Below are positions 17,931 to 34,180 of a stretch of DNA of 34,180 nucleotides, one piece after another; the stretch's first letter is position 1; each line of letters begins with the position of its first letter. This DNA comes from an uncultured Gammaproteobacteria bacterium (GTDB lineage: Bacteria > Patescibacteriota > Patescibacteriia > Magasanikbacterales > GWA2-37-8): contig CAYTMT010000002.1 in NCBI GenBank assembly GCA_964439095.1, forward strand, positions 1 to 34,180, written 5' to 3'. The position numbers and the translations under genes were made by a program. The notes below the pieces were generated by a model. The model worked only from the letters and a program-made list of their open reading frames with translations, was not told the origin of the DNA and did no database searches.

Positions 17931-17976
17931 AAATTTAGACTAACACGTTCTTTCCACCATCCAAGAGGAGGCTAAA

Positions 17977-19211: not shown

Positions 19212-19301
19212 TATAGACTGTAAAAAAACAGACTGTCAAGCCTGTTTTTTTGTGGTAAATAAAAGCACATAGTTACCCACAGTAATTTTTGTTAAATATC
19301 C

Positions 19302-19330
19302 TTGGTGGTGATCGTAGGTTATGGTATACT
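19302..19330 (+). promoter_or_regulatory. Extended -10 promoter at the head of the surface-gene block
   Basis: TTGGTG 19302-19307, 17-nt spacer containing TG at 19322-19323, TATACT 19325-19330. Confidence 0.5.
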
Positions 19331-19363
19331 GTACTTGGATTGAGTAATAATTTTTTTGTTTGT

Positions 19364-21685
19364 ATGTTTAATAACAAACTCGTTCGGCTATTTGATATGG
19401 CGACGTATATTATTTTGTTCATTATCGCAATCACCATTCCATTGTTTGTTGATAAGCACTTGGTAAATGCGTACGTTGTTCCTAAACAATATCTGTTTGC
19501 AGGGTTAATATTAGTGGCGTTGCTTACGGTTGCGGTCAAAACAGTGTTGGCAAAACGAGTTGAGCATGTTCGTTCGGTAATAGACACGCCGATTTTTGTT
19601 GTGTTGGGACTTTCATTATTATCGAGTTTGTTGGCAATAAATACATCAGATAGTTTTTTAGGTAGAAACGATTCTTTTGGGCTTAATTTTATTTTTATTG
19701 CAGTATCGGCTCTGTATTATTTTTTGTTGGTGAATTATGTGCGCACGGTGGGGCGTTGGCAGGCAATGTTGAATGTGCTGGTTGCAGTCGGAGGGGTAAC
19801 AGCAACTTTGTTTGTACTCAAATCCTTGTTTCATTTAGACTTACTTGCCTGGATAGCCCCGGGAATTTGGAATACGGTCGAAAAAATCAATAGCCCGTTT
19901 GGTTTGTGGTTAGTGATCGTGTTTGTGCTTTCCGCAGGACAGCTTATTCGTAAGGATGTTGCTCCAGGAAAAATGCTCCTATCTTTTTTTGTCATGCTTG
20001 TGTCTCTGGTTTCGCTTGTTCAATTGAGTTTCGTTATTTTGTGGTGGCTGTTATTTGCTGGAATTTTACTTCTCCTCCTTTTGGGCGTAATGTTTATTCA
20101 TGAGTCGCGACTAGGCTGGTTGTCGGTGTTGTTTTCGGTGCTTATTCTTACAACAGTATTTATCTTTTTCGGCACACCTAAAACTTTACAGTCAGCAGTT
20201 CCAGTGGAGGTCTCTTTGGGAATTAAACCTTCTTGGAGTGTGGCTGGAAAGGTTTTGTTTTCTGGTATTAAGCCATTTTTTATTGGTAATGGATTGTCTT
20301 CATTTGGTGTTTCGTTTTCTCAATTTCGTCCAGTGGGTTTTAATGCCGACCAGCTCGCCTGGAATCTTCGTTTTAGTCAGCCGCAGAACACCTTTATTGA
20401 ACTCCTGGCTAGTGGTGGGGTAACACTCGCGCTCGCTTTTGTTTTTGTGGTATTACTTCTTCTTGGTCATGCATTCCAAATTTTGTTTAAGCTGCGTTCA
20501 GAAAATGTAATGCAAGGATTGGTTACGCGTTTGGCGGGTATTCCACCACTAGCTATTGAAATTTTTTTGGTGGTAGTAGCGTGGGTGGTAGCAACGATTG
20601 GTATGGCATTTGTGTTCTACGGACCAACGTTATGGATTATGTGGTGGTTACTTCTTGGGCTTACTGTAAGTGGGCTGGCTTTTTTGGATAACGGACTCAC
20701 TTCGGTGCGTGAGTGGGTAGTGGAGGAATCTCCGCAATACAGCTTGTCGTTTTCTTTTTTGTTAATTATTGTGATGGCAGCAGTTGTGCTGAGTGGAATT
20801 TTTGGAGCACGGTTGTATTTGGCAGAAATGGATTACGCTAAGGCGCTTCAGAGTAACGCGCAAGATGCGGAAAGGTTTTTGTTGAGCGCGTTATCTAAGC
20901 GAAGTAATTTTGATTTGTATCATGCGGCGCTCGCTCAGGCCTATCTGGTGGACGCAGTACAGGCCAGTCAAGCAGCGAAGCCTGATGTGCAAGCAATAAA
21001 CACGTTGATGGGAAATGCGGTAAACGAAGCGCGGACCGCAATGGATTTATCGCCACGGTCGGTGATGATTGCAGAGAATTTAGCTACTATGTACGAGAAC
21101 ACAGCAGCGCTTATTCCTGGAGCGCGTGATTGGGCGATAAAAACATTGGAGGAGGCACGAGTGCTTGAATCAACAAATCCAGTATTGCGTTGGCGTTTAG
21201 GTAATAATTATGCGGGGGCTGGAAAATGGGAAGATGCTATCAAAAACTATCAAGCTGCAATTGATCTTAAACAGGATTATGTGGCGGCCTATGTAAGTTT
21301 GGCTGTGGCATATCAGGCTACAAACGATTTAGATAAAGCAGTAGAAACATATCGTATTATTGCTCCGGCCGGGATAAATAATTCTGATTATCTTTTTCAG
21401 TTTGGAAAATTATTGTTTAATCGTAATAAAGGCACTGATCGTGCTGATGCTGAAAAGTTGTGGTTGGAGGCAGTGCGTATTACTCCTAATTTTTCCAACG
21501 CGTTGTATAGCCTTGGTTTGCTCAATGAAACAAAAGGAAATAACACCGAAGCTCTTCGGTATTACTACAAGGTGCGCGATTTAAATCCGGACAATAAAGA
21601 TATTATTACTAAAATTAAAGCGTTGGTGGGAGGAGACAGCGCTCCAACTCCAGCTGTTGCAAAACCAGGAGAAAAAAAACGCTAG
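19364..21685 (+). CDS. O-antigen ligase/polymerase-like (Wzy_C-type) polytopic membrane protein with C-terminal TPR repeats
   Basis: About 12 TM helices followed by a periplasmic-type loop (GNGLSSFGVSFSQFRP). The C-terminal third has TPR repeats (GKWEDAIKNYQAAIDLKQDYVAAYVSLAVAY..., ALYSLGLLNETKGNNTEALRYYYKVRDLNPDN). The ATG at 19364 is preferred because the ORF-track start at 19289 precedes the promoter. Confidence 0.8.
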   Translation: MFNNKLVRLFDMATYIILFIIAITIPLFVDKHLVNAYVVPKQYLFAGLILVALLTVAVKTVLAKRVEHVRSVIDTPIFVVLGLSLLSSLLAINTSDSFLGRNDSFGLNFIFIAVSALYYFLLVNYVRTVGRWQAMLNVLVAVGGVTATLFVLKSLFHLDLLAWIAPGIWNTVEKINSPFGLWLVIVFVLSAGQLIRKDVAPGKMLLSFFVMLVSLVSLVQLSFVILWWLLFAGILLLLLLGVMFIHESRLGWLSVLFSVLILTTVFIFFGTPKTLQSAVPVEVSLGIKPSWSVAGKVLFSGIKPFFIGNGLSSFGVSFSQFRPVGFNADQLAWNLRFSQPQNTFIELLASGGVTLALAFVFVVLLLLGHAFQILFKLRSENVMQGLVTRLAGIPPLAIEIFLVVVAWVVATIGMAFVFYGPTLWIMWWLLLGLTVSGLAFLDNGLTSVREWVVEESPQYSLSFSFLLIIVMAAVVLSGIFGARLYLAEMDYAKALQSNAQDAERFLLSALSKRSNFDLYHAALAQAYLVDAVQASQAAKPDVQAINTLMGNAVNEARTAMDLSPRSVMIAENLATMYENTAALIPGARDWAIKTLEEARVLESTNPVLRWRLGNNYAGAGKWEDAIKNYQAAIDLKQDYVAAYVSLAVAYQATNDLDKAVETYRIIAPAGINNSDYLFQFGKLLFNRNKGTDRADAEKLWLEAVRITPNFSNALYSLGLLNETKGNNTEALRYYYKVRDLNPDNKDIITKIKALVGGDSAPTPAVAKPGEKKR

Positions 21686-21701
21686 TAAATTATTTGGGTG
21701 T

Positions 21702-22328
21702 ATGAAAAAAATATGGGTGTTAGTATTGTTGGTGGTGTGTGGAATTCCGGCGGCAGTATTTGCAGCCATGTCTTCGACGAACTATACAATTTACGCGGAT
21801 AGCGTTGATACTGGTGATGTGTTTGCAGCTGGTGGTGGTTATGAGCTTTCGGGAACGGTAGGCGAATCCCCTGCTGGTTTTTCGACGAGCACCTCGTATG
21901 AGGTGCGTGCTGGATATCAAGCCATGGAGCGCGGTGAGTTGACGGTAAGTTTAGATCCAGAAACGGTATCGCTCGGTACGCTAAACACGTCAACCGTGGC
22001 TAGTGCTTCTGTGATAGCGCGGGTAACTAGCGATGCGGATACTGGTTATTCGCTCTCTGTTGGAGGGGTAAGTAACGCATTGCTTGATTCGGTGGCAGAC
22101 GGAAGTGTAAGTGCGGGTGCAGGAGAGTATGGTATGGCGGTGAGTGGGGCTGATAGTGTGGTTGGTTTGGAAGATGTGGCGGTAGTTTCCAACCAAGTCT
22201 TAGCGGCTTCATCGACAGCAGTAGTTGATAGTGCAACTGTCTTGACGTTTAAGGCTTCGATGAGTGAAGCAACTCCTCCAGGAACTTATAATCAAACAGT
22301 AGTTTTGCAAGTAGTAGCAAATTTTTAA
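21702..22328 (+). CDS. Small secreted beta-rich protein (WxL/SCPU-like surface subunit, tentative)
   Basis: 208 aa from the ATG at 21702. Signal peptide MKKIWVLVLLVVCGIPAAVFA. Duplicated SSTNY/STSTSY strand motifs. The C-terminus PPGTYNQTVVLQVVANF resembles the terminal strand of WxL and spore-coat-U-type subunits. No Trp-x-Leu motif. Confidence 0.7.
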   Translation: MKKIWVLVLLVVCGIPAAVFAAMSSTNYTIYADSVDTGDVFAAGGGYELSGTVGESPAGFSTSTSYEVRAGYQAMERGELTVSLDPETVSLGTLNTSTVASASVIARVTSDADTGYSLSVGGVSNALLDSVADGSVSAGAGEYGMAVSGADSVVGLEDVAVVSNQVLAASSTAVVDSATVLTFKASMSEATPPGTYNQTVVLQVVANF

Positions 22329-22346
22329 TTGCCACAGCAATTTGTC

Positions 22347-23252
22347 ATGTTAAAGGATAACATACAATATAGTTGGTTTTTTAGAGCTTTATTACCAGTA
22401 GCGGTATTATCTTTTTTGGTTTTGGGAGGAGTACAGCGTGTTTTGACGGCTGGTTTTGGGATTAGTCCCCCACGTGGAGTGGTTACTGTGGCACCAGGCG
22501 GGGAAACTGTTATAAGTCAAACTATTAAAAACGATTCCACAAAAACTACTCATTTTCGACTGCAAGTGATGGGTGTTGTCCGTAGTGCAACGGGCGGAAT
22601 TGTATTAGTCTCGGGGCGAGATGTAGCTGAGGCTTGGATAAAAACAGAAAAGAGCGACATGTCTATTGGTCCAGGGAAGGAAGAGAAGGTTCAATATGTT
22701 ATTGCAGTACCAAAACGAGTTTTGCCTGGCTCGCACTATGTGGGTTTGGTAGCGGAAACAGTTCCAGAGGGAGGAGTAAACGAAAGGGCGGTTGGAATTA
22801 CCACGCGCCTCGTTACTATTCTTACTGTTCAAGTTTCAGGTGTTGTGGAAGAGAAAATCTCTCTTGTGAATTGGCAACTGAATGGTGTATGGTGGAACAG
22901 TGTGCGGGCAGTACAATTACGTTTAAAAAATGAAGGAGCAATTGAAGTGCCAATTCGGATACAGTTAATGGGACGCGACTGGTTTCATCATCGACAACAA
23001 TTTACTATCCCTTTTGATCGACAAGTTTTGGTTGGCGAAGAGCGAGATGTTTTGGAAGTAATTAATGTTGCAGGAATGAAAAATACGTTTATTGGGCCGA
23101 CCGCTTTGGAGCTCGTTGTTTCGTATGGTCGTACTGCGCAAGTAATCGTCAGTGCTAGAACGGTCTGGTTTGTGCCTGGTTGGTTGGTTGGGTTAGTGGG
23201 TGCAGTGGTGGTTTTAGGAGGGGTATTTTTATGGCAGAGAAAACGTACTTAG
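22347..23252 (+). CDS. Two-domain beta-sandwich protein with C-terminal TM anchor (DUF916/DUF3324-like architecture, tentative)
   Basis: N-terminal signal or anchor, an Ig/chaperone-like pattern (ISPPRGVVTVAPGGETVISQTIKNDSTKTTHFRLQV), a second beta domain, then TM GWLVGLVGAVVVLGGVFLW and the basic stop-transfer sequence QRKRT. An alternative TTG start at 22329 abuts the upstream stop. Confidence 0.7.
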   Translation: MLKDNIQYSWFFRALLPVAVLSFLVLGGVQRVLTAGFGISPPRGVVTVAPGGETVISQTIKNDSTKTTHFRLQVMGVVRSATGGIVLVSGRDVAEAWIKTEKSDMSIGPGKEEKVQYVIAVPKRVLPGSHYVGLVAETVPEGGVNERAVGITTRLVTILTVQVSGVVEEKISLVNWQLNGVWWNSVRAVQLRLKNEGAIEVPIRIQLMGRDWFHHRQQFTIPFDRQVLVGEERDVLEVINVAGMKNTFIGPTALELVVSYGRTAQVIVSARTVWFVPGWLVGLVGAVVVLGGVFLWQRKRT

Positions 23253-23253
23253 T

Positions 23254-24018
23254 ATGCAGCGTGTTTTGTTAGTATTTTTAATCACAACAGGAACACTGAT
23301 CGGTGTTTTTTCGTGGTTGTCGGCTTCGGCAGAAACCAACTATCAAGGAGTGGTAATAAGTTTAACGGTGCCCAGCTCAACGGCGGGTGCTTATTGTGGT
23401 AATGGTGTTGTTGAAGCAGGAGAAGAATGTGATGGTGGTGGGAGTAACGGCTCATGTCCGGCAAATTGTAGCTCTACATGTGCCCCCAATTCATGTGGTG
23501 ATGGGGCAACATCGGACACAACCAGTGTTTTAATAAAAGCAAAACCAGAGAAACGTTTTTTGGGCGAGTCAGGACAACGCGACAATTTTGGCACGATCAT
23601 TCTGCTATCTTTTTTTGATCCAAATTCTTTGAGTTCTCCCCAAGAGATGGTTTTGGCTACCAATGATCAGGGAGAAGTAATAATAGACAAAAATAACTTG
23701 CCAGATTTAGCACCTTTTTCGGGGTGGTCTGCTACTGTAAAAGGACTATCACATCTGACAAAAAAAATTATCAATGTTGATGTGATTAGAAATCAAAGAA
23801 CGGTATGGGACTTTACTGCTAATAATCAAAATTTTTTATTGGCGGGTGATGTGCAAGCAAGAAAAGATGATGTGGTAGATGTTCAAGATATTTCTGCAAC
23901 GCTCACTGCATTTGGAGCGCAGAAAGATAAAAACGCTGATTTAAACAACGACGGTGTTGTTGATGTGCAAGATATTAGTATTATTCTTCCTAATTTTGGT
24001 AGCATCGGTGATAAATAA
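23254..24018 (+). CDS. Secreted protein with Cys-rich CGNG..EECD repeat and C-terminal dockerin-like tandem Ca-binding repeats
   Basis: Signal peptide. YCGNGVVEAGEECDGGGSNGSCPANCSSTCAPNSCGDG at ~23392-23505 is of the myxococcal-type cysteine-rich repeat kind. DVVDVQDISATLTAFG...DLNNDGVVDVQDISIILPNFGS at ~23845-24010 is a dockerin-type duplicated F-hand pattern. Confidence 0.75.
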   Translation: MQRVLLVFLITTGTLIGVFSWLSASAETNYQGVVISLTVPSSTAGAYCGNGVVEAGEECDGGGSNGSCPANCSSTCAPNSCGDGATSDTTSVLIKAKPEKRFLGESGQRDNFGTIILLSFFDPNSLSSPQEMVLATNDQGEVIIDKNNLPDLAPFSGWSATVKGLSHLTKKIINVDVIRNQRTVWDFTANNQNFLLAGDVQARKDDVVDVQDISATLTAFGAQKDKNADLNNDGVVDVQDISIILPNFGSIGDK

Positions 24019-24024
24019 TTTTTT

Positions 24025-26724: not shown

Positions 26725-26758
26725 TCCACAAAAAACAAGATAAACTTCGCCCTATATG

Positions 26759-26767
26759 TGGTATAAT
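26759..26767 (+). promoter_or_regulatory. Extended -10 element (TGgTATAAT) 7 nt upstream of the giant-ORF ATG
   Basis: TG 26759-26760, TATAAT 26762-26767, ATG 26775-26777. No SD fits in the 7-nt gap. Confidence 0.5.
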
Positions 26768-26774
26768 AAGGTAT

Positions 26775-29700
26775 ATGGAAAAAATTGATCGGCTGTTGAA
26801 AAAGAATCGAAAGAGAACTCGGGCCATTTTAATGTTGGGGCCATTATTTTTCTTTGTGTTTTTGTTTTTTGGGCTCGTAGCCCGTTCTTCTTTTGCTGTA
26901 GCCGCAGCGGTTCCAGACGTTATAACGTATCAAGGTAAATTGTTGCTGAATAATGCTTCGGTAACGACTACTGTCCCAATACAGTTTGTTCTCTATGACA
27001 CTCCCAGCGCTGGAACGATTTTGTATACGGCCAGCGGAACTATAGGGGCTCCAGCAGCAACAGCAGTAACTCCAAATAAAGGCTTATTTAGTGTTGAGTT
27101 AGGTGGAAGTGGAACAAATCCATTAGACGCGGGCGTAGTATTTAAAAATAATAGCTCTGTTTATCTGGAAGTAACGGTAAACGGTGAAACCCTTTCTCCT
27201 CGCAAACGTTTAACGGCTAGTCCGTATGCTTTTAACGCAAAATATTTAGACGGTATTGCCGCCACAAGCACCCCCACTAGCTCAGCATATATTCCAGTAG
27301 CGGATTCTTCTGGTAATTTTAGTTTTAATCGGGTAACTTCAACCGGTTTTGTAGTGTCTGGCACTTCAACCTTGGCTACAACTACTATTTCTAGTTCGAC
27401 TATCGGGGTAGCGAATGTGGGGAATCTCTTTTTGACAAATGCCACCGGCACGAACTTATTTGTTTCCAGTCTTTCTGCGAGTAGTAGTGTTTTTTCCAGT
27501 GTTACGTCGAGCAATTTTTCCGTTACTGGTAATTTAGACATAACCACAGCGGTAATTCTTGGTCTCTCTACCGCGGATCTTTCGGATAGTAGCAGTCTGG
27601 CATATTTGGTTGGTGCAAATACCTTTACTGGTCCAAATACTTTCTCTGGAAATACTACTTTGGCCACTACTACCATTAGTTCTTCTACTATTTTTACTGC
27701 CAATATTAACTCGCTTAATGTTTTGTCTTCCTTGTCGTTGCCTGTTGCCTCAATTCTCGAGGCCTATCTTGCTCCTAATTCTGTTTCTTCCACCACGCTA
27801 AAATCAACAGGAGTAGTGGCTGGCACCTATGGTTCAGCCACACAAACAGCTCAATTTGTGGTGGATGAAGATGGTCGCATCCTTTCAGCCACCAATGTAA
27901 CTATCATTTCTTCATCTACAAGCCCTTCATCATCTTTTGATGGTACCATCGCTGCGGGTGATTTGTCGGGCACCTATCCAAATCCAACCGTGAGTAAAAT
28001 AAATGGCAATACATTGGGTAACACGGCCATTACTGGTGGTAACATTTTAGTGGCCAGCAGCACAGCAGGTTGGACATCGGTAGCGCTGGGGGGTGATGCG
28101 ACGATTGATTCTTCTGGTTTACTTTCCATTACCAACAATACGGTTACGGTGGCCAAGTTAGTAGCAGGTGATTTTTCTAGTAAAATAAATACTGGTACTT
28201 ATTCTATTAATGTTACCGGAACCGCTTCGAATGTAACTGGTGTGGTAGCATTGGCTAATGGTGGAACCAATGCAAACGCTAGTTTCTTCACTACCCCGGG
28301 CGAGTTTATTATCTATGATGGAAGTCGGTTAGTGGGGGCTGGTTTTTCTTCATCTTCGTTTGCTTTGACTAGTCACACACACTCCGCGGCAGATATTACG
28401 GCCGGTATTTTTTCGGGGGTAAGTTATACGTTCGCTAATGATTTGGCAGTATCTGGTTTTTCAACATTCCGTACCACCACCATCAGCTCTTCTTCTATTA
28501 CCACCGCCAATATTAACTCGCTTAATGTTTTTTCTGCCCTCACTCTTCCAGCTGCCTCAATCCTCGAAGCCTATCTCGCTCCTAATTCTGTTTCTTCCAC
28601 CGCGCTTAAATCAACGGGCGTAGCCAGTGGAATCTATGGTTCGGCCACGGAAATTGCTCAGTTTGTGGTTGATGAAGATGGGCGTATTCTTTCGGCCTCT
28701 AATGTTTCTATCGCCGCTTCTGTTACTACCACAGTGACTACTACTCTTGATGGCACCGCCGGCGGTGATTTGTCGGGCACCTATCCGGACCCAACCGTGA
28801 GTAAAATTAATGGTAACACGCTCGGCAATACGGCTACCACCAGTGGACATATTTTGGTAGCGAGTAGTACGGCAGGTTGGACATCGGTAGCGCTCGGTGG
28901 TGACGCAACGATTGACTATAATGGTTTGTTGTCAATTACAAATAATACTATCACCGCGGCCAAGCTAGCAGCTGGTGATTTTTCGAGTAAAATTAATGCG
29001 GGCACATACACAATTAGTGTCACCGGTACAGCCGATAACGTTACCGGCGTGGTAGCTATTGCCAACGGTGGTACAAATGCAAATGCCAGTCATTTTACTA
29101 CTCCGGGTGAGTTTGTAATTTATGATGGCAGCCGGTTGGTTGGATCAGGATTCACATCGTCTTCCTTTTCTTCGGGTGGTAGCCATACCCATCCTGCTTC
29201 GGATATTACCGCCGGTACTTTTGGCGGGTCGAGTTATGTATTTGCTAATGATTTGGCGGTGTTGGGTTCGGCGACTTTTGCTACTGCTACGGTACAGAAT
29301 GCGTTGCAAACCGACTCTGGGTTATTTTTATCGCAAGTTGGTTTGGCTGTTCCTAATTTGTTAACTAACCCTTCTTTTGAAAGTGGTATCACCAACTGGG
29401 GTGATCGACTTGGGTTTTTGGGTGGCAGTACATATTCAGTAACCAGCACTGCTTATAGCGGGTCTTCTGCCTTGCAGTTAGAGGCCAGGCTAGATTTGAG
29501 TGGGTTTTTTGGTGGCCCACCGCTTAAAATCGGCTACTTTTATCACGATACTTCTAATGTAACGCAAAGCGCTAGTAGTACTATTAGTTTTTATGCCCGC
29601 GGTGCAGTTGGTGGCGAACACGCGCGTATTTTGATTGAGCGTGATCCGGGTACTGGGCAAGCTGGTTGTGGTGGTAGTTTAGCTTCGGTTTATAATTTTA

Positions 29701-32700
29701 CCACTGGTGGTTGGGATTGCGTGGATTTACAAACAAGTGTGGCGGCTTTTGCGGTTGCTTCGCCGAATACTCAATCTTTTAGTTTAACTACAAGTTATCA
29801 ACGTTTTAATGCTACCTTTAATCCGGGTGCCTATGGTACGGTGCAAATCTCTATATTAGCCGGTGGTGCCTCGGCCTATAATGATGAAGTAGTTTTGTAT
29901 GATGCATTTAAATTGGAAGCAGGTAGCACTCCGTCATCATTTGATGGTGGTTCATCACCCATGTTCGCTTTAAAAAATAATAACGCAGCGGCGGACTATA
30001 ATTCACAAACATCACTACTATCTGTTCAGGATTCGGCGGCTACTAATTTTTTCCAGATTATGGGTGATGGCCGGGCCAATGTTGGTAGTGCCAGCGTTAC
30101 TGGTTCCATTGCTGTTTTTGGTCGTGGTTCAGAGCAAACAGTGCTGAATGGCTATGGGCAATTATTATCCCGTGGCGCATTTGGCTCTGATGATACGCTG
30201 ACTAGTGCTACTGGATCGCAGTTTATCTGGTATCCAAAGCGGGGTGCATTTAGAGCTGGGTATACTGATACGCTCACCTGGGGAGATAATACAATTGGTA
30301 ATTATTCATTCGCCGCAGGTAACGAAGTTTCCGCGCCCGGTGTTGGTGCGATTGCGTTTGGTAAAAACGTAACAGTAACCGGAGCAAATTCGGTGGCTTT
30401 TAGTGCTAGTTCCACACTTTCCACAGTCGCCAATGATAATATTTTTTCATTGCTTGGGTATAAGGTGGGTATTGGCACGGTTAATCCGGCCACCGCTTTA
30501 GTGGTAGTGGGTACTACCACTCTCGAGAATTTATCAGTAACCGGTTCTACTACGCTTGATAATATTAGCCCAACAGGAATAAATCCGGTGCTAACAGTAA
30601 CTGGTGGTTTAAAGTTGGGGTATGTAGGTTCTGCTGCTCTTGGTACGTTGCGGTGGAGCGGATCGCGATTGGAGTGGTACGATGGTTCTTCGTGGGTAGC
30701 AACATCTTTGCCGGCAGCGACGGATAATGGCACTACACTCCGATATGATGGTGCCGAATGGGTGACGAGTACTTTTTTACGGAATCTTTATAGTAGTTCT
30801 CAAATTAATATTAATAACGCAACCGGCAGTGCGGTATTAGCAGTGCGTGGAAGTGATCTTGAGTTACCTATTGCGGAGTTTTACAATGGACGTAGTGGTT
30901 TTGAAGATGTTCCTGCTATCCTTTCTATTCAACAAGGTGGTGGTGGAAGTGGTTGGGTAGGGATAGGAACAAGTACACTAGATTCAGTATGGGAACCAAA
31001 GTTGTTGGTAAAAAGTGACAGTGGTGCTCTAATGAAGCTCGATGGTGGAGTTGATGGTCTCAGTAACGAAATTTCTCGTACTCTTCTTTTTACTGGTCTT
31101 GGTCGTCTATCATTAGGAACCACTACTGCGGCAACAGTGAATGCCGCGAAGGTGACAATCGTTGGTGAAGGATCCACTGGAGCCACAAATCCATTGCAAG
31201 TGTTGCGTAATGATGGTACATCAAATTTTGTTATCCGTGATGATGGAATGGTTTTTGTTAAAAAAGGAAGTTTGATTGTAAATTCTGATTCCACTGCTTT
31301 GTCTCGTCCGGCGTTGTATGTGACCAGAAAATCAGGCGATATTAGTCAGGTCATTGCGCAGTTTACTGATAACGCCAGTTCAACTTTGGCCAACACCATT
31401 CTTAGTATCAATGCTGGCGGTATCCAAATTAACACTACAACTCTTGATTATTATAGTGTCGCAGGGATTCAAGGTGTTGGCGGAATTTCTATGGTAGATA
31501 GTGGCAGCTCGCCAGGTGTTGCCACCGGACCGCGTTTTTTGTGGAGTGGCAGTAAATTTCGAGTGGGCACATTTAATAGTGAGTTTGGTTTGGGGGCTGA
31601 CACTATCGCCCTTGGCACTGATGCTTATGCCGACCAAATTGAGGCCACTGCTCTCGGCTTGCATGCGTTGGCTACTGGGCGGAGGTCTTTAGTGTTGGGA
31701 AACGGAACTGCCTCTGGTGATTTTTCAACAGCAATTGGTAATGCGGAGTTCGTGTCAGTTGGTCATGATAAAGCGAATAGTTTTAATGTTCCCGAGGCCA
31801 GTGGTTATGGTGCGATTGCCATCGGGAGTGGAAGCATAAGTCAAAACTTTGGTGCCAAGACTCTGGCTGCAGGGACATCGTCACTTGCCATTTTTGGTAT
31901 AGCTTCTGGTACACAGTCGGTGGCGTTGTGGGGTGATGCTTCCGGCGACAATTCAATGGCTTTTGGGCGTTATACTTCTATCACTGCTTCTGGTGCTGTG
32001 GTATTAGGGCGGGGTGTTGATAGTAATAACCCGTTATTAAACACTACCAACAATTCTTTGGCTGTTGGTTTTAATTCTGATGTTCCCACCTTTTTTGTAG
32101 GTGGTGGTTCGGGAGTTGGCACATATGGCCAAGTAGGTATTGGCACCACCAACACTGCGTACACACTCGATGTGCGCGGTACTTTTGGCGCCACCGGTAC
32201 TTCCACTTTAGCCACCACCACCATTACCGCAGTCGCGAGCAGTTTAATACCTACCGAAGATAATGTATTTAGCTTGGGTACGTCGCTCATTCGCTGGAAA
32301 GATTTGTATGTAAGCTCCAGTAGTTTGCATATTGGCGCAGATGGTGCCGAGGGCAGCATTCATTATAATACTGATGACCATTATTTATCATTCAACGCGG
32401 GTAGTGGTATTGCCAGTCAACTGGTGATTGTAAGTAGCACTGGTTTTGTGGGTATTGGTACGACTACGCCTAATGCTGTGCTTACCGTGGGTGGTGGTGC
32501 GTATTTGGATGGCGGCTTGGAAGTAACTGGAAGTGCCACATCAACTGGTGATCAATATGTAGGTGGAAATTTATCAGTGATAGGATTAAGTCATTTTGCA
32601 AACCTTACTTGGGATAGTGCAACGGGCACGAGTGTGTTTCTTTCAAATGCAACGGCCATTGATGCTATGGTGGGAAATTTAACAGTGACGAGCACTCTCG

Positions 32701-34180
32701 ACGTAAGCGCTGCAACTATTACTGGGCTTTCCACTAGCGATTTGTCTGATGCGAATACAATTGCCTATCTAGCGCCCGATCAAACATTTACCGGGCAAAA
32801 CAATTTTACCAATCGAGTAACAATTGCTACGGCCACAGTTTATGCTTTCGAAAGCGATTTATTGGCATCAGAAGATGATCTCTATTCTTTAGGATCTTCC
32901 ACTAATCGTTGGCGCAAAGTATTTGCTAAAACTGGTATATTTGGCACTGCTGGAATGAATGATCCATTAACCATCAGTGAGAGCGGTATCGTGGCCAACG
33001 GTATGATGTCGTTGAGCGTTCAAAATATTGGTGCGGGTGGGGTAACATTGAGTTCAAATGGATCCGCATCTCTTCAGGTGACGGGGAATAATATTTCTTT
33101 GAATGGAGATTTGGCTACGGTGGGTGGAGGGTTAACCGTTGTAAACACTTCAACGCTTGCTACCACTACGATTTCTGGGAACCTGGGAATTGGAACAACC
33201 ACACCGGCATATCGATTGACATTGGATGGCGATGGAGTGATTGTGGCACACGGTGAATTTGGAGTGGGAGCAGACGCACCAGATGGTCCAGGAACGCGGT
33301 TGGTGTGGTTACCGCAGAAAGCGGCCTTTCGGGCTGGAGTAGCGGAAGGTGGACAGTTTGACAATGCAAATATTGGAAATTATTCCACTGCGTTTGGTCT
33401 TAATGTTACTTCGTCTGGGGCGGGAAGTTTTGTGACGGGGGTAGATAATGATGTGACAGGGGACTACTCTTTCGGTACAGGGCGATACAATTCGGTCAGT
33501 GGAATTTATTCAGCTGCGTTTGGTGTGTTTAACACTGTTTCTGGTAGTATTTCAGTGGCATTAGGTTCTGGTAATCATCTAAATAAAGTTTATTCTTATG
33601 TTCTTGGCTCAGCCAATATACTTGACTCTGAGTCGTCTTTTGTGTTGGGGGAAGGCAATATTATAGACGGCCAGCCTTCAGCTACAGTTTTAGGGGTGGG
33701 TAATGTTCTTCATGATGGAGGTGTGGCTATTGGTCATATAAACCAAGTAACATCATCTGGTTTTGCCGCTGGTTATGCTAATAGAGTTGAGGGTAACAAT
33801 TACGCCTTTGGTTATGGAAATGTAATCGGTAACGGAAATGTTTCGTCAACAAATTCAGCCTTTGCTTTTGGAAATAATCTTAATATAACAGGGGGTGGTG
33901 GGTTTGCAATAGGTTCAGGGGTTTCCATTCACGATCTTTTGGTAAACGATATTGCAGATTCACTATTTGTTGGATTTAATTCTAACCTACCAACATTGTT
34001 TGTTGGCCCAAGCAATGGTGTAGGAACATTTGGGAGTGTTGGTATCGGTACGACAAATACTTTGTCAATACTTACGGTAAATGGTGACGTAACTCCGGCA
34101 CTTGATGGGGTTTATAGCTTAGGTACGTCAACCTATAGATGGAAAGATTTATATTTAAGTTCGAGTAGTTTACATATTGG
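26775..34180 (+). CDS. Giant modular surface fibre / adhesin-like protein, 3'-partial (more than 2468 codons, runs off the window)
   Basis: This ORF is not in the ORF track. The in-frame stop TAA at 26715-26717 precedes it, and the first start codon after that stop is the ATG at 26775. I hand-translated the frame whose codon starts are multiples of 3. Codon-by-codon checks over 26998-27060, 27990-28080 and 29340-30360 found no stop. The track lists no frame-matching ORF anywhere in 7.4 kb, as expected for an ORF lacking a stop in the window. N-terminal signal-anchor MEKIDRLLKKNRKRTRAILMLGPLFFFVFLFFGLV, then S/T/G-rich fibre modules. Confidence 0.9.
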   Translation, partial: MEKIDRLLKKNRKRTRAILMLGPLFFFVFLFFGLVARSSFAVAAAVPDVITYQGKLLLNNASVTTTVPIQFVLYDTPSAGTILYTASGTIGAPAATAVTPNKGLFSVELGGSGTNPLDAGVVFKNNSSVYLEVTVNGETLSPRKRLTASPYAFNAKYLDGIAATSTPTSSAYIPVADSSGNFSFNRVTSTGFVVSGTSTLATTTISSSTIGVANVGNLFLTNATGTNLFVSSLSASSSVFSSVTSSNFSVTGNLDITTAVILGLSTADLSDSSSLAYLVGANTFTGPNTFSGNTTLATTTISSSTIFTANINSLNVLSSLSLPVASILEAYLAPNSVSSTTLKSTGVVAGTYGSATQTAQFVVDEDGRILSATNVTIISSSTSPSSSFDGTIAAGDLSGTYPNPTVSKINGNTLGNTAITGGNILVASSTAGWTSVALGGDATIDSSGLLSITNNTVTVAKLVAGDFSSKINTGTYSINVTGTASNVTGVVALANGGTNANASFFTTPGEFIIYDGSRLVGAGFSSSSFALTSHTHSAADITAGIFSGVSYTFANDLAVSGFSTFRTTTISSSSITTANINSLNVFSALTLPAASILEAYLAPNSVSSTALKSTGVASGIYGSATEIAQFVVDEDGRILSASNVSIAASVTTTVTTTLDGTAGGDLSGTYPDPTVSKINGNTLGNTATTSGHILVASSTAGWTSVALGGDATIDYNGLLSITNNTITAAKLAAGDFSSKINAGTYTISVTGTADNVTGVVAIANGGTNANASHFTTPGEFVIYDGSRLVGSGFTSSSFSSGGSHTHPASDITAGTFGGSSYVFANDLAVLGSATFATATVQNALQTDSGLFLSQVGLAVPNLLTNPSFESGITNWGDRLGFLGGSTYSVTSTAYSGSSALQLEARLDLSGFFGGPPLKIGYFYHDTSNVTQSASSTISFYARGAVGGEHARILIERDPGTGQAGCGGSLASVYNFTTGGWDCVDLQTSVAAFAVASPNTQSFSLTTSYQRFNATFNPGAYGTVQISILAGGASAYNDEVVLYDAFKLEAGSTPSSFDGGSSPMFALKNNNAAADYNSQTSLLSVQDSAATNFFQIMGDGRANVGSASVTGSIAVFGRGSEQTVLNGYGQLLSRGAFGSDDTLTSATGSQFIWYPKRGAFRAGYTDTLTWGDNTIGNYSFAAGNEVSAPGVGAIAFGKNVTVTGANSVAFSASSTLSTVANDNIFSLLGYKVGIGTVNPATALVVVGTTTLENLSVTGSTTLDNISPTGINPVLTVTGGLKLGYVGSAALGTLRWSGSRLEWYDGSSWVATSLPAATDNGTTLRYDGAEWVTSTFLRNLYSSSQININNATGSAVLAVRGSDLELPIAEFYNGRSGFEDVPAILSIQQGGGGSGWVGIGTSTLDSVWEPKLLVKSDSGALMKLDGGVDGLSNEISRTLLFTGLGRLSLGTTTAATVNAAKVTIVGEGSTGATNPLQVLRNDGTSNFVIRDDGMVFVKKGSLIVNSDSTALSRPALYVTRKSGDISQVIAQFTDNASSTLANTILSINAGGIQINTTTLDYYSVAGIQGVGGISMVDSGSSPGVATGPRFLWSGSKFRVGTFNSEFGLGADTIALGTDAYADQIEATALGLHALATGRRSLVLGNGTASGDFSTAIGNAEFVSVGHDKANSFNVPEASGYGAIAIGSGSISQNFGAKTLAAGTSSLAIFGIASGTQSVALWGDASGDNSMAFGRYTSITASGAVVLGRGVDSNNPLLNTTNNSLAVGFNSDVPTFFVGGGSGVGTYGQVGIGTTNTAYTLDVRGTFGATGTSTLATTTITAVASSLIPTEDNVFSLGTSLIRWKDLYVSSSSLHIGADGAEGSIHYNTDDHYLSFNAGSGIASQLVIVSSTGFVGIGTTTPNAVLTVGGGAYLDGGLEVTGSATSTGDQYVGGNLSVIGLSHFANLTWDSATGTSVFLSNATAIDAMVGNLTVTSTLDVSAATITGLSTSDLSDANTIAYLAPDQTFTGQNNFTNRVTIATATVYAFESDLLASEDDLYSLGSSTNRWRKVFAKTGIFGTAGMNDPLTISESGIVANGMMSLSVQNIGAGGVTLSSNGSASLQVTGNNISLNGDLATVGGGLTVVNTSTLATTTISGNLGIGTTTPAYRLTLDGDGVIVAHGEFGVGADAPDGPGTRLVWLPQKAAFRAGVAEGGQFDNANIGNYSTAFGLNVTSSGAGSFVTGVDNDVTGDYSFGTGRYNSVSGIYSAAFGVFNTVSGSISVALGSGNHLNKVYSYVLGSANILDSESSFVLGEGNIIDGQPSATVLGVGNVLHDGGVAIGHINQVTSSGFAAGYANRVEGNNYAFGYGNVIGNGNVSSTNSAFAFGNNLNITGGGGFAIGSGVSIHDLLVNDIADSLFVGFNSNLPTLFVGPSNGVGTFGSVGIGTTNTLSILTVNGDVTPALDGVYSLGTSTYRWKDLYLSSSSLHI
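27663..29279 (+). repeat. In-frame tandem duplication inside the giant ORF (copy 1 27663-28469, 807 bp; copy 2 28470-29279, 810 bp)
   Basis: The two 269/270-aa units align end to end (ISSSTIFTANINSLNV...FANDLAVSGFSTF versus ISSSSITTANINSLNV...FANDLAVLGSATF). The anchor gccaatattaac occurs at 27699 and 28506. Each unit contains an S-H-T-H motif (HTH codons at 28374-28382 and 29184-29192). Confidence 0.9.
30213..34180 (+). repeat. Three diverged super-modules inside the giant ORF (starts 30213, 31527, 33291)
   Basis: Each opens with G-x-x-F/L-x-W-x-x-x-x-x-F-R-x-G: GSQFIWYPKRGAFRAG, GPRFLWSGSKFRVG, GTRLVWLPQKAAFRAG. Short G/N/S/A-rich repeats of YadA-head type follow (IGNYSFAAGNEVSA..., GDFSTAIGNAE..., GDYSFGTGRYNSVSG...). 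The last two end with the near-identical junction YSLGTS..RWKDLY.SSSSLHIG at 32259-32336 and 34103-34180, exactly 1845 bp apart. Confidence 0.8.

What the first reader, a model, noticed from the sequence alone, without database searches (positions are those of the whole stretch)
19302..34180. Co-directional surface-appendage gene block: candidate undescribed fibre assembly / attachment system
Six consecutive plus-strand genes are packed tightly. Five follow one another at 1-18 nt gaps, and the sixth comes after a 50-nt gap with its own -10 element. Every product has a signal peptide or TM anchor. In order they are: (1) a Wzy_C-type polytopic protein with TPR repeats; (2) a ~200-aa secreted beta-rich subunit whose C-terminal strand resembles WxL and spore-coat-U-type subunits. 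Next come (3) a two-domain beta-sandwich protein with a C-terminal TM anchor, the DUF916/DUF3324 layout that accompanies WxL proteins in Firmicute loci, and (4) a Cys-repeat protein ending in dockerin-like repeats. Last are (5) an 899-aa multi-pass protein starting with a cohesin-like domain and (6) a fibre protein of more than 2468 aa with a lectin-like module. The window contains no sortase, usher, secretin, type IV pilus ATPase or autotransporter barrel. If these genes act together, the assembly logic would therefore be non-canonical: Sec export, a membrane-anchored scaffold or chaperone, and cohesin-dockerin docking. In a small-genome, probably host-dependent bacterium, such a block is a plausible host or partner-cell attachment apparatus. 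That functional reading is inference.
Basis: partly seen in the sequence, partly recalled or inferred. Interest (0 to 1): 0.9.

Follow-up and report, generated by a model that had tools for sequence, protein, structure and literature searches.

The report
Pam-like pilin–chaperone surface fibre cassette
This is a real, strongly conserved gene cassette of tiny host-dependent (CPR) bacteria whose core is a pilus subunit plus a membrane-anchored chaperone, related to the recently described CPR "Pam" pilus, so it is a new variant of a known system, not an undescribed one.

Summary
The six-gene plus-strand block is real: gaps are 16, 18, 1, 6 and 50 nt, and every product has a signal peptide or TM segment. 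It is far from chance. g1-g2-g3 are contiguous in about 50 GTDB species, mostly Ca. Magasanikbacteria. The order pilin–chaperone–g5–giant fibre recurs in 61 further metagenomic loci.

The g2 family significantly matches NCBIfam PamT and Pam-pilin-C, below curated cut-offs. Its model resembles Csu, Fim and CFA/I pilins. g3 is two β-sandwiches plus a C-terminal TM helix. Its best matches are E. faecium WxLIP (DUF916/DUF3324), then chaperone-usher chaperones.

The core is therefore a usher-less, membrane-anchored pilin–chaperone system, like the Pam pilus of Ca. Mycosynbacter amalyticus (bioRxiv 2026). This version is distinct and minimal, with one short pilin.

It also has conserved partners that the preprint text I searched does not mention: g5 (3-TM, transthyretin-like domains) and a giant fibre with a conserved N-module and hypervariable body. 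g1 is linked mainly in Magasanikbacteria. g4 (dockerin-like) is confined to one clade.

Wzy_C and cohesin assignments are not supported by HMMs. Filament formation is inferred, not shown.

The parts
19364..21685 (+). g1: polytopic membrane protein (about 11-12 TM) with a C-terminal TPR domain. It sits immediately upstream of the pilin gene in Magasanikbacteria.
   Evidence: Several Pfam TPR families score above their cut-offs at residues about 600-735. The N-domain has no Pfam hit; Wzy_C hits only 2 of 32 orthologs at E about 1e-3. There is no PDB sequence hit. g1 lies directly upstream of g2 in nearly all 50 GTDB loci at 39-55% identity. In distant loci it is found only 3 times, and downstream.
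21702..22328 (+). g2: 208-aa secreted Pam-type pilin-like subunit (signal peptide residues 1-22).
   Evidence: NCBIfam PamT NF058579 scores E 9e-14 (51 bits, cut-off 240). Pam_pilin_C NF058581 scores E 9e-7 (29 bits, cut-off 55). All 61 relatives hit PamT. It is the only such gene in the window.
21768..21926 (+). g2 N-terminal extension (residues 23-75: MSSTNYTIYADSVD..GG.Y.L..T.GES..G..TS.YEVRAGYQAM). It holds three S-x-N-Y-x-L-type strand motifs and is the candidate donor-strand or linker region.
   Evidence: This is the most conserved part of the family: 14 of 54 columns are invariant or >=90% conserved, against 19 of 133 in the domain. Yet pLDDT is below 50 in the monomer model. The same motif heads the 300-367-aa two-domain relatives. 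The donor-strand role is inferred.
21927..22325 (+). g2 C-terminal beta-sandwich (pilin) domain, ending exactly at a conserved ...ANF C-terminus.
   Evidence: pLDDT exceeds 90 over residues 80-208. The Foldseek list is dominated by chaperone-usher pilins, with E 5e-3 to 0.1 and probability up to 1.0. The conserved C-terminal end is visible in A3 and A8.
22347..23252 (+). g3: membrane-anchored two-domain Ig-like chaperone (WxLIP / PapD-like). An alternative start is TTG 22329. The C-terminal TM helix is encoded at about 23157-23240.
   Evidence: AF2 gives pLDDT 86, two beta-sandwiches and helix 284-306. Foldseek finds WxLIP 9i1y/9i25 at E 1e-13, then CfaA, CsuC, PapD, FimC and Caf1M at 1e-10 to 1e-7. 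The family profile against PDB sequences hits EfmWxLIP1 at E 7e-7. Relative P0122 reaches the Pfam WxLIP_PGBD cut-off. g3 follows g2 in essentially all loci.
23254..24018 (+). g4: secreted accessory protein. It has a Cys-rich N-part, a conserved AKPEKR motif and a C-terminal dockerin-like double repeat (encoded at about 23839-24003). It is restricted to one clade.
   Evidence: NCBIfam dockerin_GC scores E 3.9e-5 (23.9 bits, cut-off 29). Pfam Dockerin_1 scores E 0.44. The ortholog alignment shows a conserved D.N.D..VD..D.S x2 tail. g4 is present in only 9 loci. These are exactly the loci whose g5 carries the window-type N-terminal domains.
24025..26724 (+). g5: 899-aa membrane protein. It has a signal peptide, a variable ecto-region (Big_5 plus unassigned domains) and a conserved core encoded at 25465-26721. 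The core runs transthyretin-like domain, TM, [basic-WG + transthyretin-like domain], TM hairpin, [basic-WG + transthyretin-like domain].
   Evidence: Pfam CarboxypepD_reg scores 67.5 bits with 3 stretches; SdrD_B scores 41.7 bits. The core is conserved at 36-53% in about 31 GTDB loci. It scores E 1e-110 to 1e-160 in 26 of 29 evaluable distant loci, directly after the chaperone. In L118 it is fused in frame to the chaperone.
26775..34180 (+). g6: giant Ser/Thr-rich fibre protein (more than 2468 aa, cut by the window end).
   Evidence: Translation is. YadA_head scores 35.7 bits with 6 stretches, End_tail_spike 27.6 bits, and CBM_4_9 21.3 bits (below its cut-off). A g6N-bearing giant gene follows the cassette in most GTDB loci and in 18 of 19 evaluable distant loci.
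26907..27344 (+). g6 conserved N-terminal module (residues about 45-190: P.IITYQGKLL ... LSPRKRITASPYAFNSKYLDG). It is the only part of the giant protein shared between species.
   Evidence: The module is 46-65% identical across loci, while the rest of each protein is unrelated. It has no Pfam or PDB sequence hit. A 35%-identical module heads a 317-aa ORF on an IMG/VR contig, so it is a generic N-terminal module.
27645..29268 (+). Tandem duplication inside g6 (two units of about 807 nt, 72-78% identical).
   Evidence: the repeat finder families D1-D3.

Best explanation
The block encodes a usher-less surface fibre system of a monoderm CPR bacterium (Magasanikbacteria-like). It belongs to the same superfamily as the Pam pilus of Ca. 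Mycosynbacter amalyticus, the WxL/WxLIP clusters of Firmicutes and chaperone-usher pili.

Steps that are shown:
- g2 is a Sec-exported, Pam-type pilin-like subunit with a chaperone-usher-pilin-like beta-sandwich.
- g3 is a two-Ig-domain chaperone-like protein held in the membrane by a C-terminal helix.
- g2, g3, g5 and a giant fibre gene form a conserved gene order across many lineages.

Steps that are inferred:
- After export, g3 caps the incomplete fold of g2 by beta-strand complementation at the outer face of the membrane.
- g2 subunits then join head to tail. The highly conserved but intrinsically unstructured N-terminal extension of one subunit would fill the groove of the next, giving a thin, energy-independent filament.
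- g5 is the most conserved partner. It has a large ecto-region and two cytoplasmic transthyretin-like domains. It would act as the membrane platform or anchor that stands in for the missing usher.
- The giant fibre g6 has a conserved N-module and a hypervariable body with YadA-head and tailspike-like motifs. It would be the host- or partner-binding adhesin displayed by or alongside the filament.
- g1 (polytopic + TPR, distantly O-antigen-ligase-like) may glycosylate or otherwise process the subunits.
- g4 is a clade-specific accessory protein that probably docks by its dockerin-like tail onto the clade-specific N-terminal domains of g5.
For: Pilin:
- NCBIfam PamT and Pam_pilin_C hit the window g2 and 61 of 61 and 38 of 61 relatives respectively, with best E 1.9e-19.
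- The AF2 domain has pLDDT >90. The Foldseek list is almost entirely chaperone-usher pilins (CsuE, CsuA/B, FimA, CfaB, PapG pilin domain) plus TasA.
- The N-extension is the most conserved region yet is disordered in the monomer model, as expected of a strand that folds only in a partner.
- The family ends at a fixed C-terminal aromatic residue.

Chaperone:
- AF2 and Foldseek place g3 closest to WxLIP and then to CfaA, CsuC, PapD, FimC and Caf1M.
- The family profile hits EfmWxLIP1 at E 7e-7.
- The C-terminal TM helix matches PamC/PamD as described in the preprint.

System level:
- g1-g2-g3 are contiguous in about 50 species.
- The order pilin(1-3 copies)-chaperone-g5-giant holds in distant loci: g5 in 26 of 29 and the g6 N-module in 18 of 19 evaluable loci.
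- One locus (L118) has an in-frame chaperone-g5 fusion that preserves topology.
- Related loci carry giant proteins with a C-terminal pilin domain, like tip adhesins (L133, L135).
- The preprint reports a 'tail fibre-like protein' consistently co-located with pam operons, and a density on PamA Ser356 into which the authors docked galactose.
Against: - g2 and all relatives tested fall well below the curated NCBIfam cut-offs (51 vs 240 bits; 29 vs 55 bits). This is a sister family, not a curated Pam member.
- The best model match is to PamT. The preprint describes PamT as a non-donating tip subunit of low abundance.
- The window has only one pilin gene, and no two-domain PamA/PamB-type major pilin.
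- No complex or multimer prediction could be run, so polymerisation and the g2-g3 interface are untested.
- Foldseek E-values for g2 are weak (5e-3 to 0.1).
- g3 also resembles RbmA, though with much lower TM-score. It could therefore be a tether like PamR rather than, or as well as, a chaperone.
- The roles of g5 and g1 rest on synteny alone. g1 is not linked to the cassette outside Magasanikbacteria.
- There are no expression, proteomic or imaging data.
Confidence: 0.6

Rival explanations
1. The block is a static surface-display complex of the WxL/WxLIP type, not a filament. g3 would be a permanent membrane anchor that holds g2 by strand insertion. g2 would be a non-polymerising adaptor or cap, like PamT or a small WxL protein. 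It would tether or organise the giant adhesin g6 and g5 at the cell surface.
For: - g3's best sequence and structure matches are WxLIP, ahead of the chaperone-usher chaperones.
- WxL clusters combine a small subunit, a large host-binding protein and one WxLIP (PMC10599100).
- g2's best HMM match is the tip subunit PamT.
- The cassette has only one pilin-like gene.
Against: - g2 has no WxL Pfam hit at E<=0.1, and its only Trp lies in the signal peptide (my reading of the translation).
- Foldseek puts g2 with polymerising chaperone-usher pilins. No WxL chain of 9i25 appears in the top 50.
- g6-type giants carry no detectable g2-like or WxL-like domain.
- The strongly conserved N-extension of g2 suggests a strand-donating role.
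- Related loci have 2-3 two-domain pilins, as real pili do.
Confidence: 0.25
2. One reading: a cellulosome-like scaffold in which the dockerin repeats of g4 plug into a cohesin domain at the start of g5. This docking would be the main principle holding the appendage together.
For: - g4 has a conserved double D.N.D..VD..D.S tail, with a sub-threshold dockerin_GC hit at E 3.9e-5.
- g4 and the window-type N-terminal domains of g5 co-occur perfectly: 9 of 9 loci, against 0 of about 25 others.
Against: - g5 has no cohesin hit in Pfam or in PDB sequences.
- Pfam Dockerin_1 scores only E 0.44.
- g4 is absent from about 40 of 50 related species and from the distant loci, which keep the rest of the cassette.
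- The 9 co-occurring loci form one clade (g5 core 49-53% identical, against 36-44% elsewhere). The co-occurrence may therefore be a single evolutionary event.
Confidence: 0.07
3. The genes are merely neighbouring, independently acting envelope proteins, for example a glycan-ligase-like protein, assorted adhesins and a membrane protein. They would share no machinery.
For: - There are no experimental data.
- The promoter and terminator scans are uninformative.
- A possible separate -10 element lies before g6.
- The position of g1 varies outside Magasanikbacteria.
Against: - Gene order is conserved across sequence divergence down to about 25-30% identity in more than 100 loci.
- Intergenic gaps are only 0-18 nt.
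- One locus carries a chaperone-g5 fusion.
- The pairing of pilin and chaperone homologs matches two known systems.
Confidence: 0.05

Closest known systems
Pam pilus of Candidate Phyla Radiation bacteria (Ca. Mycosynbacter amalyticus; Troman et al., bioRxiv 10.64898/2026.03.03.709456; NCBIfam NF058579 PamT, NF058581 Pam pilin C-domain)
   Same: - It occurs in a CPR host, and all parts are Sec-exported.
- The pilin C-terminal Ig-like domain is homologous by HMM.
- The PapD/FimC-like two-domain chaperone carries a C-terminal TM helix.
- There is no usher, secretin or ATPase.
- A 'tail fibre-like' giant gene lies nearby.
   Different: - Scores are far below the curated cut-offs.
- There is one short (208-aa) pilin instead of PamA, PamB, PamE and PamT.
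- There is one chaperone-like gene instead of PamC, PamD and PamR.
[quoted passage not shown]
- The conserved partners g5 (3-TM, transthyretin-like domains) and g1 (polytopic + TPR) did not turn up in term searches of the preprint's main text. No ATP-synthase genes are next to the cassette in the window.
- I could not retrieve the M. amalyticus operon to compare it directly.
WxL / WxLIP (DUF916-DUF3324-TM) surface protein clusters of Enterococcus, Lactiplantibacillus and Listeria (PMC10599100; PDB 9i1y, 9i25)
   Same: - g3 shares the two-Ig-domain plus C-terminal TM layout and is detectably homologous to it.
- The cluster logic is the same: a small secreted subunit, a large host-binding protein and one membrane-anchored partner.
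- A strand-insertion interaction has been proposed for WxLIP and WxL.
   Different: - g2 is not a WxL domain: it has no Pfam WxL hit and no W-x-L motifs.
- The window g3 itself is below the Pfam WxLIP_PGBD cut-off (12.8 vs 27.3 bits).
- A peptidoglycan-binding role is untested.
- g5 and g1 are extra components.
Archaic and alternate chaperone-usher pili of Gram-negative bacteria (Csu, with spore-coat-U-type subunits; CFA/I; also Pap/Fim and Caf1)
   Same: The predicted folds of both the subunit and the chaperone resemble these systems. The presumed mechanism is donor-strand complementation and exchange without ATP.
   Different: - There is no outer membrane and no usher.
- The chaperone is membrane-anchored.
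- No Pfam PapD or usher hits were found.
- Sequence identity is only 9-20%.
- The candidate donor region is a long (about 50-aa) N-terminal extension with three strand motifs.
Cohesin-dockerin (cellulosome-type) docking
   Same: g4 ends in a conserved duplicated Ca-binding-like D.N.D..VD..D.S repeat.
   Different: No cohesin was detected in g5. The dockerin signal is below all cut-offs. g4 is confined to one clade.

Membership tests
CPR Pam pilus system | Pilin subunit reaching the NCBIfam Pam_pilin_C (NF058581) domain cut-off of 55 bits | tested here: not met
   The window g2 scores 29.1 bits, E 9e-7. 38 of 61 relatives hit, with best E 1.4e-8. Two-domain relatives score 26-45 bits. The homology is significant but below the cut-off.
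CPR Pam pilus system | PamT equivalog (NF058579) cut-off of 240 bits | tested here: not met
   g2 scores 51.4 bits, E 9e-14. All 61 relatives hit, with best E 1.9e-19, and none comes near 240 bits.
CPR Pam pilus system | PapD/FimC-like two-domain chaperone carrying a C-terminal transmembrane helix | tested here: met
   The AF2 model has pLDDT 86, two beta-sandwiches and helix 284-306. Foldseek hits CfaA, CsuC, PapD, FimC and Caf1M at E 1e-10 to 1e-7.
CPR Pam pilus system | Two-domain major pilins (NTD, linker donor strand, CTD) such as PamA and PamB in the operon | tested here: not met
   Only one 208-aa pilin-like gene exists in the window and in Magasanikbacteria loci. Two-domain relatives of 300-367 aa exist in other lineages.
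CPR Pam pilus system | Assembly by donor-strand exchange into a helical filament | not testable with these tools
   No multimer prediction or experiment was available. The only indirect evidence is the conserved but disordered N-extension.
CPR Pam pilus system | No usher, secretin or ATPase; all components Sec-exported | tested here: met
   All six products have hydrophobic N-terminal segments. No such machinery turned up in the Pfam or NCBIfam scans of the six proteins. The neighbouring genes look like housekeeping genes. SignalP was not run.
WxL / WxLIP cluster | WxLIP protein: DUF916 (PF06030) + DUF3324 + C-terminal TM | tested here: inconclusive
   The window g3 scores PF06030 E 0.12, 12.8 bits, against a cut-off of 27.3. 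Relative P0122 scores 27.4 bits. The family profile hits EfmWxLIP1 over both domains at E 7e-7. WxLIP is the top Foldseek hit at E 1e-13.
WxL / WxLIP cluster | At least two WxL-domain proteins (dual Trp-x-Leu motif) in the cluster | tested here: not met
   No WxL Pfam hit appears in any of the six proteins at E<=0.1. The only Trp in g2 is in its signal peptide (sequence). No 9i25 WxL chain is among the top 50 Foldseek hits of g2.
Classical chaperone-usher pili | Outer-membrane usher plus soluble periplasmic PapD-family chaperone | tested here: not met
   No usher or PapD Pfam hit was found. The chaperone-like protein is membrane-anchored. CPR bacteria are described as lacking an outer membrane in the preprint.
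Cohesin-dockerin system | A cohesin domain (PF00963) and a dockerin domain (PF00404 / NF041540), each above its cut-off | tested here: not met
   Cohesin gives no hit even at E<=10 for g5 residues 1-300. Dockerin_1 scores E 0.44, and dockerin_GC 23.9 bits against a cut-off of 29.
O-antigen ligase / Wzy_C family (g1) | Pfam PF04932 match | tested here: inconclusive
   The window g1 gives no hit at E<=10. 2 of 32 orthologs hit at E about 1e-3. By eye, the motif GNGLSSFG...RFSQPQNTFIELLASGG resembles the Wzy_C loop, but the usual His is absent. That comparison is from memory, not a test.
Sortase-dependent or type IV pili | LPXTG sorting signal with a sortase, or a class III (prepilin) signal peptide with an assembly ATPase | tested here: not met
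   g2 ends ...VVANF with no LPXTG, and it starts with a classical signal peptide ending AVFAA|M. I saw no sortase or ATPase in the window. In the relative L001, type IV pilus genes lie about 8 kb away as a separate cluster.

The most novel reading that the evidence does not exclude
The four-gene module pilin-chaperone-g5-giant fibre may be a distinct and widespread appendage of CPR bacteria. In this reading a cytoplasmic-membrane protein, g5, replaces the outer-membrane usher as the assembly and anchoring platform. g5 has three TM segments with cytoplasmic transthyretin-like domains, and in one locus it is fused to the chaperone. The filament would present a hypervariable giant adhesin. Through g3, this system would link Firmicute WxL/WxLIP clusters, CPR Pam pili and Gram-negative chaperone-usher pili into one ancient family of strand-complementation machines that predates the outer membrane.
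Probability: 0.3. Interest if true: 0.8.

Novelty: new variant of a known kind. Interest (0 to 1): 0.55.

Why it matters
CPR/Patescibacteria are a large share of bacterial diversity, and all cultivated members live attached to host cells. How they attach is largely unknown. The Pam pilus was recognised only in 2026, in one cultured species, and its assembly without an usher is still a model.

This window shows a simpler sister system: one pilin and one anchored chaperone. It is fixed in a different CPR lineage and is always joined to two further conserved genes, g5 and a hypervariable giant fibre. That yields concrete candidates for two open questions. One is what anchors and organises a donor-strand pilus in a cell without an outer membrane. 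The other is what provides host specificity.

The detectable homology of g3 to Firmicute WxLIP also suggests that the poorly understood WxL clusters of enterococci, lactobacilli and Listeria may work by the same chaperone-subunit principle. The proteins involved are currently labelled 'hypothetical' in public records and fall below the NCBIfam cut-offs, so the system would be missed by routine annotation.

Tried and rejected
- PHROGs scan of g2-g6: no hits.
- PDB sequence searches with family profiles of g2, the g1 N-domain, the g6 N-module and the g5 N-domains: nothing significant. The g5 core gave only marginal prealbumin-fold hits.
- Pfam on the g1 N-domain: no usable hit. I therefore dropped 'Wzy_C' as an assignment and kept it only as a lead.
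- Search for a second pilin-like domain in g4, g5, g6 or the giant proteins of Magasanikbacteria loci (hmmsearch with the g2 profile): none found. The idea that g6 carries a hidden pilin domain is unsupported for the sequenced part and for full-length relatives.
- hhalign of the g5 N-terminal domains against the g3 chaperone family: probability 24%, not significant.
- Promoter and terminator scan: counts no higher than in shuffled sequence, so it says nothing about operon structure.
- NCBIfam scan of the g3 family for a Pam chaperone model: no hit. I do not know whether such a model exists.
- Direct protein search with g3 alone: only 2 hits. A profile search was needed.
- First metagenome scan attempt with a too-diverse alignment failed. 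It was repeated with a tighter one.
- I could not obtain the M. amalyticus pam operon sequences. There is therefore no direct comparison with PamC, PamD, PamR or PamT, and no check for a g5 homolog there.
- Both structure-prediction jobs went to the g2 and g3 monomers. No complexes could be modelled, and g1, g5 and g6N remain without models.

Full report
**1. The observation**

The region holds six co-directional + strand ORFs:

| Gene | Coordinates | Note |
|---|---|---|
| g1 | 19364-21685 | ATG matching the ortholog N-termini; the longest ORF starts at TTG 19289 |
| g2 | 21702-22328 | 208 aa |
| g3 | 22347 or 22329-23252 | ATG or TTG start |
| g4 | 23254-24018 | 254 aa |
| g5 | 24025-26724 | 899 aa |
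| g6 | 26775 to beyond 34180 | 2468 codons, cut by the window end |

The gaps are 16, 18 (0 with the TTG start), 1, 6 and 50 nt. A TGGTATAAT element ends 8 nt before the g6 start. A hydrophobicity scan finds an N-terminal signal-like segment or TM segments in every product.

**2. The block is conserved, so it is not a chance arrangement**

The g2 family has 158 relatives in the word-indexed protein search. They are about 210 aa long and 40-53% identical. The few that carry a source name are 'hypothetical protein' from Patescibacteria or Magasanikbacteria.

A scan of one genome per GTDB species found 50 loci. Most named records are Ca. Magasanikbacteria or Magasanikiibacteriota. Many others carry an 'uncultured Gammaproteobacteria' MAG title, which is probably a mislabel.

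BLAST of the six window proteins against all ORFs of these loci gave the following:
- g1-g2-g3 are contiguous and co-directional in nearly every locus.
- The C-terminal core of g5 (residues 481-899, 36-53% identical) follows in about 31 loci.
- A giant gene follows in about 32 loci. It shares only the N-terminal module of g6 (residues about 45-190, 46-65% identical). Its body is otherwise unrelated and runs 1079-2994 aa.
- g4 occurs in only 9 loci.

Three individual look-ups gave the same picture. They also showed that the upstream RmuC, LAGLIDADG, HolA and PolA context is conserved.

**3. g2 is a pilin-like subunit of the Pam type**

NCBIfam gives two hits for g2. One is CPR_pilus_PamT (NF058579) at E 9e-14 and 51 bits, against a cut-off of 240. 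The other is CPR_Pam_pilin_C (NF058581) at E 9e-7 and 29 bits, against a cut-off of 55. All 61 aligned relatives hit PamT, with best E 1.9e-19. 38 hit the pilin C-domain, and 3 weakly hit a MyfA/PsaA fimbrial model.

These models correspond to the pilus described in bioRxiv 10.64898/2026.03.03.709456. In that work, cryo-EM of filaments from Ca. Mycosynbacter amalyticus identified the pilins PamA and PamB. They assemble by donor-strand exchange. The operon also encodes:
- PamE, and the tip subunit PamT.
- PamC and PamD, which are PapD/FimC-like chaperones with a C-terminal TM helix.
- PamR, a membrane tether.

The system has no usher.

The AF2 model of g2 (61-sequence alignment) has a confident beta-sandwich at residues 80-208, with pLDDT >90. 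Foldseek against the PDB returns weak E-values (5e-3 to 0.1). The list is nonetheless almost exclusively chaperone-usher pilins: CsuE, CsuA/B, FimA, CfaB and the PapG pilin domain, plus the TasA fibre.

Residues 23-75 follow the signal peptide. They carry three S-x-N-Y-x-L-like strand motifs separated by Gly-rich turns. They are the most conserved part of the family: 14 of 54 columns are invariant or nearly so, against 19 of 133 in the domain. Yet they are modelled with pLDDT <50. A donor strand or linker that orders only in a partner subunit would behave this way. That reading is inference.

All family members end at the same position with an aromatic or aliphatic residue.

An exhaustive HMMER search of 1.84 billion representatives found 1863 relatives at E<=1e-3. 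Among them are 300-367-aa proteins with the same N-terminal motif, an inserted domain of about 95 aa, and the pilin domain at the C-terminus. Ten of these were scanned against NCBIfam. All hit the Pam models and none reached a cut-off. This is therefore a sister family of the curated Pam pilins.

**4. g3 is a membrane-anchored chaperone-like protein of the WxLIP type**

g3 evolves fast. A direct search found two proteins, one of them named 'DUF916 domain-containing'. A profile search found 28.

The family profile hits EfmWxLIP1 (PDB 9i25_C, 9i1y_A) at E 7e-7 across both domains. One relative just reaches the Pfam WxLIP_PGBD (formerly DUF916) cut-off. The window protein itself does not.

The AF2 model (pLDDT 86) has an N-terminal hydrophobic helix, two beta-sandwich domains and a C-terminal helix at residues 284-306. 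Foldseek ranks the matches as follows:
- WxLIP first, at E 1e-13.
- Then the chaperone-usher chaperones CfaA, CsuC, PapD, FimC, Caf1M and EcpB, at 1e-10 to 1e-7 and TM-scores 0.36-0.46.
- RbmA matches with much poorer superposition (TM-score 0.26-0.28).

This is the architecture reported for PamC and PamD and for Firmicute WxLIP (PMC10599100). Term searches of the Pam preprint's main text found no mention of WxL or DUF916.

**5. The other genes**

*g5.* It has three CarboxypepD_reg (transthyretin-like) stretches, an SdrD_B match and a sub-threshold Big_5 match.

The topology inferred and the positive-inside rule is:
1. A signal peptide.
2. A large ecto-region.
3. One TM.
4. A cytoplasmic transthyretin-like domain that follows 'RRRQRKEWG'.
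5. A TM hairpin.
6. A second such domain that follows 'PNKPKSWG'.

No cohesin signal was found in Pfam, even at E<=10 for residues 1-300, or in PDB sequences. Its N-domains show no significant relation to g3.

*g1.* It has clear TPR repeats. Its polytopic domain gives no Pfam hit. Only 2 of 32 orthologs touch Wzy_C, at E about 1e-3.

*g4.* It has a conserved dockerin-like double repeat, but it is below every cut-off. It occurs only in the 9 loci whose g5 carries the window-type N-terminal domains. Those loci look like a single clade, so the co-occurrence counts as roughly one event.

*g6.* It has:
- YadA_head repeats (35.7 bits).
- A recurring LGTS..RWKDLY motif that matches End_tail_spike (27.6 bits).
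- A weak CBM_4_9 hit.
- Internal duplications.

Its conserved N-module has no family assignment. The module also occurs on an unrelated 317-aa ORF of an IMG/VR contig, so it is a generic N-terminal module.

**6. The module extends beyond Magasanikbacteria**

A metagenome scan seeded with the two-domain pilin relatives returned 79 loci. I searched their ORFs with HMMs built from my alignments:
- 61 loci have pilin(s) followed by a g3-type chaperone.
- The g5 core follows in 26 of 29 loci with enough sequence, at E 1e-110 to 1e-160. It is the best conserved component.
- A giant gene with the g6 N-module follows in 18 of 19.
- Nine loci have two or three pilin paralogs.
- In L133 and L135 a giant protein carries the pilin domain at its extreme C-terminus (residues 1573-1707 of 1709), like a tip adhesin.
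- In L118 the chaperone and g5 form one 1327-aa ORF. The chaperone TM, a short basic loop and the former g5 signal peptide keep both ectodomains outside. This is a single case and could be an assembly error.
- g1 appears in only 3 of these loci, and downstream.

**7. Interpretation**

The homology of g2 and g3 to a pilin-chaperone pair is well supported. So is the unity of the pilin-chaperone-g5-giant module. The following points are inferred, not shown:
- that g2 polymerises;
- that g3 acts as a transient chaperone and not as a permanent anchor, as WxLIP is proposed to be;
- that g5 is the platform or anchor;
- that g6 is the adhesin;
- that g1 modifies the subunits. The preprint reports extra density on PamA Ser356 with galactose docked into it, which makes a glycosylation role plausible but no more.

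The main rival is a static WxL-like display complex.

**8. Novelty**

The kind of system is known: the Pam pilus preprint, the NCBIfam models, WxL/WxLIP, and chaperone-usher pili. The following appear to be new relative to the preprint text I could read and search:
- the minimal one-pilin form fixed in Magasanikbacteria;
- the conserved g5 partner;
- the coupling to a hypervariable giant fibre. The preprint's 'tail fibre-like protein' may be the same thing, which I could not check;
- the sequence-level link to WxLIP.

I rate it a new variant of a known kind and of moderate interest.

Noticed in passing
L118:8659-12639: A single 1327-aa ORF joins a g3-type chaperone (residues 23-294 plus its TM) to a g5-type protein (core at residues 826-1305). 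The link is a short basic loop followed by what looks like the former g5 signal peptide. It may be a Rosetta-stone fusion linking chaperone and g5, or an assembly or frameshift artefact.
   Followed up: partly
L133:3285-8411 and L135:1-3507: Giant proteins (1709 aa and at least 1169 aa) carry the Pam-like pilin domain at their extreme C-terminus. They sit next to one or two two-domain pilins (about 360-370 aa) and a longer chaperone (418-566 aa). These loci look like more complex, pam-operon-like versions with a tip-adhesin-type subunit, and they lack g5.
   Followed up: partly
window 18780-19239 (- strand): A free-standing 143-aa ORF lies directly upstream of the cassette and diverges from it. 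It is preceded by a perfect 12/12 sigma-70-like promoter match (19239..19210). The syntenic ORF in L001 has a weak LAGLIDADG_1 Pfam label, suggesting a domesticated or mobile homing-endonuclease-like gene at a conserved position.
   Followed up: no
window 26907-27344; L057:5992-6945: The conserved N-terminal module of the giant fibre (..ITYQGKLL...LSPRKRI..PYA..) also heads a short 317-aa ORF on a higher-GC IMG/VR contig at 35% identity. It has no Pfam or PDB assignment. It seems to be a widespread, unnamed N-terminal module of large secreted proteins.
   Followed up: partly
window 27645-29268 and 32265-32335 / 34110-34180: g6 contains a tandem duplication of an approximately 807-nt unit (72-78% identical). 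It also has a repeat spaced 1845 nt apart that ends in the tailspike-like motif LGTS..RWKDLY. This suggests modular growth of the fibre by duplication.
   Followed up: partly
L007, L009, L013, L015 and about 20 further loci: Many GTDB representative MAGs that carry this Magasanikbacteria-type cassette are titled 'uncultured Gammaproteobacteria bacterium' (MAG TPA_asm records). One is titled Candidatus Udaeobacter (L030). These titles are almost certainly wrong or placeholder taxonomy.
   Followed up: no
window 167-1576 (- strand) and whole window: By eye, a DnaA-like ORF lies at the left end. GC skew nevertheless stays positive across the whole 34 kb, with no sign change. If the origin is nearby, it is not inside the window.
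   Followed up: no
window 17940-18624: Two long ORFs overlap on opposite strands: 17940-18512 (-) of 190 aa and 17977-18624 (+) of 215 aa. The + strand product looks like a multi-pass membrane protein. I did not resolve which one is real.
   Followed up: no
L001:17066-20633: In the closest long relative, a type IV pilus gene set (PilM_2, T2SSF, T2SSE/MshEN) lies about 4-8 kb downstream of the cassette on the opposite strand. These organisms therefore carry both filament systems. The window ends before any such region.
   Followed up: no
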